Positions 51,918-54,900 of a stretch of DNA of 64,000 bases are shown here, piece by piece. Under the pieces are notes generated by a model. The model had not been told where the DNA came from and made no database searches. It saw nothing but the letters and a program-made list of their open reading frames with translations. The DNA lies in assembly GCF_033153115.1 (NCBI RefSeq), contig NW_026889786.1, positions 1,364,001 through 1,428,000 of the forward strand, read 5' to 3'. Numbering within the stretch: position 1 is the stretch's first letter; each line of letters begins with the position of its first letter. The translations under genes and the position numbers were made by a program. This DNA comes from Saccostrea echinata. Taxonomy: Eukaryota.

Positions 51918-54900
51918 CTTATCCACAGCTGCTTTGTGGCAAGATTGGTTGAAATTGTCCCAGTAGTTCTTGAGAAGAAGCTTAAATTGTGAAAAGTTTA
52001 CAGACAGATGGACAGTCAGACAAAATGTGATCAGAAAAGCTCACTTGAATTTCCAGTTCAGGTAATCTAAAAATATCAACGCCAACACCAATTATATCGG
52101 CACATGATTTTATATAAGAATAACGCAAAAAATGATTTCCATATACTACTGAACAAAAAACTAATACATGTATTCAATCTCCAGTATATAGTACAAGAAA
52201 AAAAGAATAGGCAGATTTTTCAGATATCTCAAGAATTACGGTATCTTTGACATATCATAGTAAAGTATATCAATCCTGGACACAATTTTCTGACCAAAAA
52301 TTTTTTTTTCCCTACAGTATTGTGAGTAATGCCGTCTGTCCCCCTCCGTGCGTTTGTGTGTGTTTGTCAATCTCTCTTTCCTTTCTGGAATAAATATTCG
52401 TCAAAACAATATATCGACGACAATATATGCCGACCTTGACTGTACATATTGTCGCCGACGACAATATGTGCTGGTGCTTGACTGTACATTTTGTTGCCCA
52501 TTATGCAGGAGGAAAATAAGGCTCGTCTCGGTACATATTGTCGCCAACGACAATATGTACCGATGGACGACAATATGTGCCGTGAGGGTAGGTACTTATT
52601 GTCGCTGACGACAATATGTACAAAACGACAATATGTACCGTCACAACCCTTCACATGAAGATATTGTAAAAGTGAATCCCAGTGAATTTAGTCCAAGACT
52701 TAAGATGAGGAATTTCTGATGGCCACACAAACTATTGCAGGGTACATGACATAATAAGAGCTTTGCCAAGGGAAAAGAAAAAGAACAAACATACTTTAGA
52801 AGAAATGTGCACAACAATTTATTTGATCTTCTAGTATCTTAGGCCTGGATCACTTCATATCCTTCCAGAGAACTATGAAAGTTAAGTAAAGTGATCCACT
52901 GCAAGACATGTACAGCATGATACTATGTACTTGGTCAAACACAAAAATGTGTATGTGTGTCAAGTAGTGGTCTTTGATCAGACAAATTACAGAAACTGGG
53001 AAAAGAAGGAAGAAAACAGCTTCCAGAGTTCAAAAGTTTCAGGTTTTAAAAACAAATGGAAAAATTGATCACTATACTTTAGCAAGAAGATCAAGGTCAA
53101 AATGATTATTGCTAAATGTAGCATGATATAAGTTATGTATAGAATGTTTCCACAACAACAACAAAATCAATAATGTCTGGTATTCTGTAAATACATGTAT
53201 TCCTACCTTTTGACAGGTGTTCTTGCTCTTCCTGGTGTAGAATTAACACCACCAGCTGCTGCAAGACAAATGAATGTAATTTTAATTTAATCACTGAATT
53301 CGGAGAACTCAGGAAAAAAACAACAACAAATGGTCCATGTGCCTTCATGGTCACATGAGTGTTACAATGTATGTTCTATTTTCTTAATATTTACTCCATT
53401 ATAAAATCTGAGAAGTCTAACATATTCCACATATCCCATGAGGGTACTAAAGTGAACAAATTTGAAATTACACTATATGTACAATAAGTGAATTTGTAGC
53501 TATGTTCTTCTTTAGAAGATTTGTTTTTGGTAATTCCCTTAAAATATCAATACACTGGACTACCCCAAGCCCCCTCCATTCCAACACTTATCGGTAACTG
53601 CCTTAAGGGCAATGATTTCAACAAGCTATAATCTACACTGCATGATAATGCCTGCATGAAAATTTGATAAATCTTAGCCCTGTACTTCTTGAAAAGATTT
53701 TTTAAAATGTATTTTTATGTAAAAAGGACCCTTTCAGCCCCATAACTATATAAGCATTCTTTTGTAACCAACGAGGGAGAAAATATATTGGACCAAATCA
53801 GGACTTGTACCTGAGCCCCCTGAATCACTAGACATGTCCTCTAGCAACTGAGCTATCTGGCCACTGGTGGTGAAACCTGCCTATATGCCACATTTCTCCC
53901 TTAAAGGTCTTCGCCCATCATAGTAACCCAGGCTCTTCTCTGGTAGCACACTTCCAGGGCTTGTTCAAGGCACCCAGTGTAACCAACAAGAGAGAAAAAT
54001 GCAATGGACCAGACTGGGATTCGAACCTGGGCCCCCTGAATCACTAGACAGGAGCTCAACCAACTGAACTATCTGGCCATCAAACTGGCTATCAGCAATC
54101 AAACCTGCCTTACTGCCACACTTGCAATAAACTGACAATTTGTAGCCTTATTCTCCTTGAGAAGATTTTCGAAGATTTTTCTTATATACTTCAATATAAA
54201 GCTATGAATCTCCTTTGTGGTCCTTCATGGCCCAGCCATGATTTGAATAAATCTGAATCCACACATGATAATACTTGCATATAAGGTTGGAAATTTTCAA
54301 CCTTGCTGTTTTGGATATTTTTAAAGATATTCCCCTTTATATTTCTCTGTAAAACTTTGGACTCCTTTGAGGTTCTTTCCTTGCCTCAAGAACCATGGAT
54401 TGAACAAACTAAATGATGAACCTTTCATGAAAGTTTGACAATATATAGTATTTTAAGATCTTCTAAAAATATTTCCTGAATTTTTTGTTTTTTAAATGAG
54501 CCCATCCAATTTTACTTTTTTAAAATTATCTCTCTTTGGAAAGGAGCATGCATGTTCCTTCATTTGAACAAATATGAATCACAAACTAGATTGAAATAAA
54601 CCTTTTGGTCCTGGAGAAGTAGTTGAACCTGTAACCTTATGCAAGATTGAAGACAAAAGACAATAATAAGAGCTGTTCAGATGACTTAAAAATCAATGAG
54701 TAGAAAAAGAAAATTCTCTCCTAGAATCAGTAGTTAGTACACGTCTACATAGAGAACTTACACTGAGGTTTGTGTTCCCTCTCTGAAACAGCCCCCCAAC
54801 TAATGGCTTCCAATGACTCACTGGAACTAAATCTTCTATCTCCCAATCTAGTCAAGTGTAACAATATAAAAAAAATATTACTTAAATAAATATCTCATAA

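What the first reader, a model, noticed from the sequence alone, without database searches (positions are those of the whole stretch)
53763..54120. 358-bp TRIM-like retroelement with a tRNA-like Pol III cassette in each terminal repeat
Seen: two TG...CA-bounded direct repeats (143 and 130 bp), an 85-bp interior with a PBS-like start (TGGGTGCCTTGA, close to the TGGTGCCGTGA expected for tRNA-His priming), a polypurine tract abutting the second repeat, and a near-TSD (CTTT/CTTG). Each repeat holds a ~73-nt tRNA-like sequence with A and B boxes; the 5' copy is followed by a T5 tract. Established: plant Cassandra TRIMs carry 5S rRNA in their LTRs, and TRIMs have been reported in bivalves. Inference: a tRNA-based analogue using Pol III transcription, easily mis-annotated as a SINE dimer or two tRNA genes. 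It may already be a described family.
Basis: partly seen in the sequence, partly recalled or inferred. Interest (0 to 1): 0.7.

Follow-up and report, generated by a model that had tools for sequence, protein, structure and literature searches.

The report
Old copy of oyster Helenus retrotransposon

Summary
Real, but already known. The 358-bp element reads on the minus strand: LTR (143 bp), 85-bp interior, LTR (130 bp), each LTR with a tRNA-like unit. It is a decayed copy (82% to a young copy; LTRs 85% alike) of a family with at least 387 LTR-motif matches in this genome. Of 25 related copies, 21 have exact 4-bp target duplications. Solo LTRs and 3-LTR arrays occur. A young copy matches the published consensus Helenus-1_SaGl (Kojima 2024, PMC10886601) at 126/130 LTR and 99/103 interior positions, compared by eye. 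The scan has met Helenus before on other DNA. Three details are not in that paper's main text. (1) Copies carry footprints of the tRNA-His primer, ending at 18 nt (before A58) or 38 nt (before G37). (2) A young Gypsy family shares the primer site, purine tract, LTR ends and 4-bp duplication, so it is a candidate helper. (3) U3 and the purine tract are complementary to the R/U5 end, family by family, and inverted composite insertions join there. Pol III transcription is untested.

The parts
53978..54120 (-). 5' LTR (143 bp; about 13 bp longer than the family LTR because of an insertion upstream of the tRNA-like unit)
54006..54078 (-). tRNA-like unit of the 5' LTR; box A about 54071-54060 (one change), box B 54027-54017 (intact); 8-nt anticodon loop
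   Evidence: Rfam RF00005 34.9 bits; ARAGORN tRNA-???
53995..53999 (-). T5 run after the tRNA-like unit (possible Pol III terminator; T5 in 21 of 21 5' and 21 of 21 3' LTRs of full copies)
53893..53977 (-). Interior, 85 bp (family about 103 bp; several small deletions)
53962..53975 (-). Decayed primer-binding site, 11 of 14 positions complementary to the 3' end of the genome's own tRNA-His(GTG)
53893..53902 (-). Polypurine tract abutting the 3' LTR (10 nt; 13 nt in young copies)
53763..53892 (-). 3' LTR (130 bp)
53790..53862 (-). tRNA-like unit of the 3' LTR; boxes A and B damaged
   Evidence: Rfam RF00005 29.3 bits
53759..53762 (+). Target-site duplication, left copy (CTTT)
   Evidence: family TSD is 4 bp
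54121..54124 (+). Target-site duplication, right copy (CTTG, one mismatch)
53259..54761 (-). Host intron (1503 bp) of a minus-strand ankyrin/CAP-Gly gene; the element lies inside it in sense orientation and is spliced out
   Evidence: joint 53258-54762 with CT..AC ends in contigs of 3 of 3 runs laid, 2 studies; Pfam Ank and CAP_GLY

Best explanation
The element is an old, decayed copy of the Helenus-1 family, a non-coding LTR retrotransposon whose RNA is likely made by RNA polymerase III from the tRNA-like unit in the 5' LTR and is likely reverse-transcribed and integrated in trans by a tRNA-His-primed Gypsy element. Steps. (1) Inferred: Pol III starts at the tRNA-like unit, reads through the first T-run in a fraction of cases and stops at the T-run of the 3' LTR, giving an RNA of about 315 nt whose repeated end (R) is the tRNA-like unit. 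(2) Predicted: the RNA folds into a rod in which the purine tract and U3 pair with the 3' part of the first tRNA-like unit and U5. This brings the two ends together and unfolds the first cloverleaf. (3) Shown by footprints in genomic copies: tRNA-His is the primer. (4) Shown: insertion leaves a 4-bp duplication between TG...CA ends, as an LTR integrase does. (5) Inferred: the helper is a Gypsy family of this genome that shares the primer site, purine tract, LTR ends and TSD length. This copy is probably dead.
For: Structure and TSD: 21 of 25 copies exact 4 bp, 0 of 25 exact at 5 or 6 bp; 19 of 23 after merging three copies with identical flanks. Solo LTRs: of 11 single-LTR loci without interior, 3 exact TSD, 5 one mismatch, 3 worse. 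Family match: L008 against Helenus-1_SaGl, 126/130 and 99/103 by eye; the published sizes are 129/103/361 with TSD 4. The window copy aligns best to this family (median scores 113/42/79 against 41/-1/25 for the next family). Primer: the 18-nt site equals the complement of the genome's tRNA-His plus CCA. Of 61 interiors with a primer site, 8 carry the full 18 nt instead of the usual 10, with several different junctions. Of 8 distinct longer read-throughs, 3 stop at 38 nt, just before G37. m1A58 is a known plus-strand stop (PMC8599865, passages), and reads stopping before G37 of human tRNA-His are reported (PMC6675128, passages). Helper: protease-RT-RNase H-integrase order; LTR pairs 99.8, 99.7, 99.4, 99.0 and 95.7% alike; exact 4-bp TSD in 3 of 5; purine tract 14 of 15 identical to Helenus-1.
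Against: No direct evidence of Pol III transcription. The same T5 run lies in both LTRs, so full-length RNA needs read-through that was not tested. Other tRNA-His-primed Gypsy families exist in the genome (L134-L136), and only 30 of 92 perfect His primer sites were inspected, so the helper is not unique. The window copy is only 82% like young copies and carries variants of an older sub-lineage (the TAGTGAT loop in 12 of the first 100 listed motif matches), so 'Helenus-1' may cover more than one subfamily. The predicted U3 pairing is lost in the window copy (z -0.1) and is not significant in the one Helenus-3-type copy tested (z -1.6).
Confidence: 0.85

Rival explanations
1. Same element class, but the genomic RNA comes from RNA polymerase II (read-through from host genes or a U3 promoter). 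The tRNA-like unit would be a passenger or would only make short 80-nt RNAs ending at the first T-run.
For: T5 follows the tRNA-like unit in 21 of 21 5' LTRs and could end Pol III transcripts before the primer site (termination at T4-T5 runs is recalled, not from a call). The window copy lies in sense orientation in a transcribed intron.
Against: U3 is only 25-46 nt in four families, leaving little room for a Pol II promoter. Boxes A and B are the conserved part across Helenus (PMC10886601 section 3.5). Young copies keep a full cloverleaf fold.
Confidence: 0.1
2. Tandem dimer of a tRNA-derived SINE, or two tRNA pseudogenes.
For: Each unit scores as tRNA; ARAGORN calls some young copies tRNA-Ser; a period of about 233 bp and 3-unit arrays occur.
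Against: The structure is n LTRs with n-1 interiors, fixed TG...CA ends and a fixed 4-bp TSD. Solo LTRs have TSDs, and 21 of 21 full copies lack an A-rich or microsatellite tail (those 21 were selected for an exact TSD). A primer site and purine tract sit at the canonical places.
Confidence: 0.01
3. The U3 versus R/U5 complementarity is a relic, for example an old terminal inverted repeat or repeated fold-back errors, and has no role in replication. This is a rival to step 2 only.
For: LTR ends are often short inverted repeats (recalled). Fold-back products exist and could renew the match without selection. With the purine tract included, family specificity vanishes for two of four families.
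Against: U3 alone pairs best with its own family's segment in 4 of 4 families (median -34.0, -21.9, -29.4, -25.5 kcal/mol against the best other family -21.0, -19.2, -14.1, -20.9), although the margin is small for two. By eye, published LTRs of Pacific oyster, scallop and pearl oyster keep the terminal pairs through two-sided changes.
Confidence: 0.5

Closest known systems
Helenus-1_SaGl (Helenus/TRIMp3; Kojima 2024, Biology 13:119, PMC10886601; whole main text read, supplement parts 5, 6 and 10 plus two searches)
   Same: Young copy L008 matches 126 of 130 LTR columns and 99 of 103 interior positions (by eye); same sizes, tRNA-His primer site, purine tract and 4-bp TSD. Sister families resembling Helenus-2, -3 and -4_SaGl are in this genome too.
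   Different: The window copy is old and decayed (82%) and carries older variants. The LTR has T5 where the published consensus has T4. The main text names no helper for this family beyond primer-site likeness to Gypsy-39_CGi, and has no mention of hairpins or inverted segments (0 hits each).
Helenus-2C_CGi (Pacific oyster; same paper)
   Same: Near-identical tRNA-like unit, similar interior and purine tract (by eye).
   Different: Different species; U3 and trailer differ, with the terminal pairing kept.
Cassandra TRIMs of plants (PMC7215508, passages and section 2.4 read; the 2008 PNAS paper was not held)
   Same: Pol III gene-derived LTRs, tandem LTR-interior arrays, and predicted folding into a 'super-hairpin' through LTR self-complementarity.
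   Different: 5S rRNA instead of tRNA; plants; transcription is validated for Cassandra only.
biv-TRIM (Satovic et al. 2019, PMC6934838; passages read)
   Same: TRIM of bivalves.
   Different: No canonical primer site could be identified in biv-TRIM, whereas this family has a clear tRNA-His site. No sequence comparison was run.

Membership tests
Helenus (TRIMp3) | TRIM under 1000 bp with two LTRs and no coding region | tested here: met
   358 bp; 143 + 85 + 130 bp; family 355-369 bp
Helenus (TRIMp3) | tRNA-like sequence inside each LTR, with boxes A and B | tested here: met
   Rfam tRNA above gathering score in both LTRs; boxes intact in young copies, worn in the window copy
Helenus (TRIMp3) | Primer-binding site just after the 5' LTR (tRNA-His among bivalve families) | tested here: met
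   11 of 14 in the window copy; 61 of 65 interiors have one; own tRNA-His genes
Helenus (TRIMp3) | Polypurine tract before the 3' LTR | tested here: met
   53902-53893; 13 nt in young copies
Helenus (TRIMp3) | 4-bp TSD in animals | tested here: met
   21 of 25 exact at 4 bp, 0 at 5 or 6 bp; window copy 3 of 4
Helenus-1_SaGl | Sequence identity to the published consensus | tested here: met
   By-eye count for young copy L008: 126/130 and 99/103; window copy 279 of 340 aligned columns to L008 and closest to this family of four tested
Helenus (TRIMp3) | Transcription by RNA polymerase III | not testable with these tools
   Only assembled contigs of guessed-RNA runs were available; also unvalidated in the defining paper
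Helenus (TRIMp3) | Mobilised in trans by Gypsy | tested here: inconclusive
   A young Gypsy family shares all short cis signals; no direct test
tRNA-derived SINE (SINE2) | tRNA head at the 5' end, A-rich or simple-repeat tail, variable TSD | tested here: not met
   The element starts 30 bp before the tRNA-like unit, ends in TTACA and has a fixed 4-bp TSD
Cassandra | 5S rRNA-derived segment in the LTR | tested here: not met
   Rfam finds tRNA and no 5S at E up to 1 in 52500-55500

The most novel reading that the evidence does not exclude
Helenus RNA is a self-closing rod. U3 and the purine tract of the 3' end are kept complementary to the tRNA-like unit's 3' arm and U5 in each family, which hides the tRNA mimic from processing enzymes and sets up strand transfer. 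The genome also records the full replication path: tRNA-His copies that stop at its two methylated bases, fold-back insertions joined at the stem, and a young Gypsy family with matching signals. This would make the oyster pair the first named Helenus-helper system in an animal.
Probability: 0.3. Interest if true: 0.45.

Novelty: already known. Interest (0 to 1): 0.17.

Why it matters
As a discovery it matters little: class and family are published. Practically, the copies inflate tRNA gene counts (ARAGORN calls them tRNA) and should be masked. The side results give testable handles on an open point in the defining paper, namely how a Pol III-type TRIM is recognised and copied by its helper: direct primer footprints, a candidate Gypsy partner and a conserved self-complementary fold.

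Tried and rejected
SINE dimer and tRNA gene pair: rejected. 5- or 6-bp TSD: 0 of 25. Self-priming by the LTR's tRNA-like unit: not pursued, since the primer site matches cellular tRNA-His and the paper also rejects it. Expression: no RNA holder was listed on record. Low-depth contigs cover parts of the element, but they also cover the surrounding intron and cannot show strand or start, so no verdict. Empty site: the flanks match a common repeat in 10 of 229 loci at about 70%, and the listed hits stop more than 20 bp short of the junctions, so no pre-insertion site could be read. Idea that U3 makes the 3' T-run a stronger hairpin terminator: the isolated LTR folds that way, but in the whole predicted RNA of L008 U3 pairs with the 5' copy (21.0 against 0.1 expected pairs), so the long-range model is preferred; one copy was tested. 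Formal covariation count: MAFFT did not align U3 between the two families, so none was made. A pattern for the short primer site was mis-specified by one base and counted only the 14-nt variant (2 hits). Literature: 'TRIMp3' gave only the defining paper among 6 hits; 'Helenus + retrotransposon + oyster' from 2023 gave 0; the 2026 sugar-beet paper only cites it. Look-up of earlier findings by sequence gave nothing. Repbase and Dfam are not available here, so the candidate Gypsy could not be named.

Full report
Observation. The 5' LTR is 54120-53978 (143 bp), the interior 53977-53893 (85 bp) and the 3' LTR 53892-53763 (130 bp). The LTRs agree at 109 of 128 aligned columns. Rfam finds a tRNA-like unit in each, at 34.9 and 29.3 bits against a gathering score of 29. 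ARAGORN calls one of them and cannot assign an anticodon. A T5 run follows the 5' unit, a 10-nt purine tract abuts the 3' LTR, and the flanks are CTTT and CTTG. Against the box motifs given by Kojima, the 5' LTR has one change in box A and the 3' LTR has damaged boxes A and B. The element lies in a 1503-bp intron of a minus-strand ankyrin/CAP-Gly gene and is spliced out in contigs of 3 of 3 runs laid.

The family. A search of the own genome gave 52 matches from 40 scored of 1057 candidates. A 20-nt LTR motif has 387 exact matches and its control has none. Of 29 non-overlapping loci, both ends could be called in 25. Of these, 21 have an exact 4-bp duplication, 23 have at most one mismatch, none is exact at 5 or 6 bp, and 13 of 600 cross-pairs match. 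Three of the 25 share identical flanks; merging them gives 19 of 23. Six of the 29 are arrays of three LTRs and two interiors. Of 11 single-LTR loci without interior, 3 have an exact duplication, 5 one mismatch and 3 worse. The 21 full copies with exact TSD have LTR pairs 90.8-100% alike, so the family moved recently. The window copy is old: 279 of 340 aligned columns match the young copy L008, and it keeps 3 CpG against 21. It carries variants of an older sub-lineage, seen in 12 of the first 100 listed motif matches. It still aligns far better to this family than to three sister families.

What is known. Kojima 2024 (PMC10886601; whole main text read) defines Helenus as TRIMs with a tRNA-like sequence in the LTR, with 4-bp TSDs in animals, 51 families in pteriomorph bivalves, and Gypsy as the likely helper. 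The supplement (parts 5, 6 and 10 of 11 read) lists Helenus-1_SaGl from Saccostrea glomerata: LTR 129, interior 103, total 361, TSD 4, tRNA-His primer. Counted by eye, L008 matches it at 126 of 130 LTR columns and 99 of 103 interior positions. Families resembling Helenus-2, -3 and -4_SaGl are also in this genome, so the host is probably an oyster of that group; this is inference. The scan's own notes list Helenus-type elements in other genomes (unchecked); I had found the paper before reading them.

Priming. The genome's tRNA-His genes end in the exact complement of the 18-nt site. In loci not chosen for their primer site, 65 distinct interiors were found, 61 with a site. By the script's classes, 44 have the short 10-nt match, 5 a 14-nt match (the class the window copy resembles by eye), 8 the full 18 nt and 4 other forms (a few are segmental duplicates). 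The 18-nt copies rejoin the interior at several different points, as expected if plus-strand DNA copied the primer up to A58 and overwrote the site. m1A58 is a known stop for plus-strand synthesis (PMC8599865, passages). A search for longer copies gave 9 loci, 8 distinct events, with 25, 27, 30, 36, 38, 38, 38 and 56 nt of tRNA complement including the CCA. Thirty-eight nt ends just before G37, where reverse transcriptase stops are reported for human tRNA-His (PMC6675128, passages). A rough binomial chance for 3 of 8 on one preset position is 0.0004-0.005, depending on the range assumed. Two of these loci follow Helenus-1 LTRs, six follow Helenus-2-type ends, and one is not Helenus. This shows that these families pass through tRNA-His-primed reverse transcription.

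Candidate helper. Of 92 perfect 18-nt sites in the genome, 30 were inspected. Seven belong to one family of about 9 kb. It has protease, RT, RNase H and integrase in Gypsy order. Five complete LTR pairs are 99.8, 99.7, 99.4, 99.0 and 95.7% alike, and 3 of the 5 have an exact 4-bp TSD, one has a mismatch and one is unreadable. Its purine tract differs from that of Helenus-1 at 1 of 15 positions, and both LTRs begin with TGT and end in GTTACA. Other His-primed Gypsy families are present, so this is a candidate and no more. The paper had pointed to Gypsy-39_CGi on primer-site likeness alone.

RNA fold. A young LTR folds so that its first 22 nt pair with the T-arm, acceptor 3' strand and trailer of its own tRNA-like unit (z -2.3). 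In the predicted RNA from the first base of the 5' unit to the 3' T-run, the purine tract and U3 pair with the 5' unit's 3' arm and U5, forming a rod. U3 alone pairs best with its own family's segment in all four families. Medians are -34.0, -21.9, -29.4 and -25.5 kcal/mol against -21.0, -19.2, -14.1 and -20.9 for the best other family (n = 21, 11, 5, 1). Against 200 shuffles, 5 of 5, 3 of 5, 4 of 5 and 0 of 1 copies stand out. Against this: the margin is small for two families, specificity is lost for two families when the purine tract is included, and the window copy has lost the U3 pairing (z -0.1). By eye, published LTRs of Pacific oyster, scallop and pearl oyster keep the terminal pairs through two-sided changes; no formal covariation test was run. 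Five inverted composite insertions were seen, 3 joined within the complementary stretch and 2 with exact outer TSDs, so the complementarity acts at least at the cDNA level. Kojima's main text has no mention of hairpins or inverted segments. Cassandra is reported to fold into a 'super-hairpin' (PMC7215508 section 2.4), and Ty1 needs a 5'-3' long-range pairing (PMC3592414, passages). The feature is therefore new for Helenus as far as my searches reach but has precedents.

Mechanism and its weak points. Shown: LTR-type integration and tRNA-His priming. Inferred: Pol III transcription from the 5' unit with leaky termination at the first T-run, and a Gypsy helper. Predicted: the rod-shaped RNA. The T5 run in both LTRs of 21 of 21 full copies is unexplained, because the pairing partner is made after the polymerase has passed the first run and so cannot cause read-through. 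The available runs were contigs of guessed RNA and say nothing on this.

Verdict. Interest is low (0.17). The primer footprints, the helper candidate and the self-complementary fold are modest additions that are worth a note.

Noticed in passing
L104/L030 (G000:C4, about 10614200-10614830), L124:1501-1942, L113:1501-1891, L102:1390-1745, L011:1489-1993: Inverted composite insertions that begin with a reversed LTR, so both outer ends are U5 ends. Exact outer 4-bp TSD in 2 of 5, one mismatch in 2, one truncated; 3 of 5 junctions lie in the U3/R complementary stretch. Likely fold-back products of reverse transcription that were integrated whole.
   Followed up: partly
L149-L157, around position 1501: Primer sites extended 25-56 nt into the tRNA-His complement, 3 of 8 distinct events ending just before G37; 8 of the 9 loci follow a Helenus-type LTR end (6 by BLAST, 2 by eye).
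   Followed up: yes
L127-L133 with L141-L146: Young Gypsy family, about 8.7-9.3 kb, LTR about 1.2 kb, tRNA-His primer site, gag with weak SCAN/PNMA/zinc-knuckle hits, no further long frame after pol.
   Followed up: partly
L011, L015: Hybrid elements joining Helenus-2-type and Helenus-1-type LTR parts, which suggests co-packaging and template switching between families.
   Followed up: no
L021 and L103: Two places with the same immediate flanks, one with three LTRs and one with two: the array length seems to have changed after insertion.
   Followed up: no
window 49400-59325, minus strand: Spliced gene with ankyrin repeats and CAP-Gly domains (CLIP3/CLIP4-like by recall); ten introns with CT..AC ends seen in contigs of three runs.
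   Followed up: partly
window 52518-52651 and about 50900-51300, 52330-52500: Arrays of a palindromic 17-27-bp unit that form hairpins and give weak plant-miRNA Rfam hits far below gathering score; probably a non-autonomous DNA-transposon-type repeat.
   Followed up: no
window 53610-53725 and 54140-54290: The element sits inside a decayed high-copy repeat, about 70% like copies in 10 of 229 loci.
   Followed up: partly
window 56630-57100: Tandem repeat that translates to a repeated peptide on the minus strand; most of it is skipped by the spliced contigs (joint 56229-56982).
   Followed up: no
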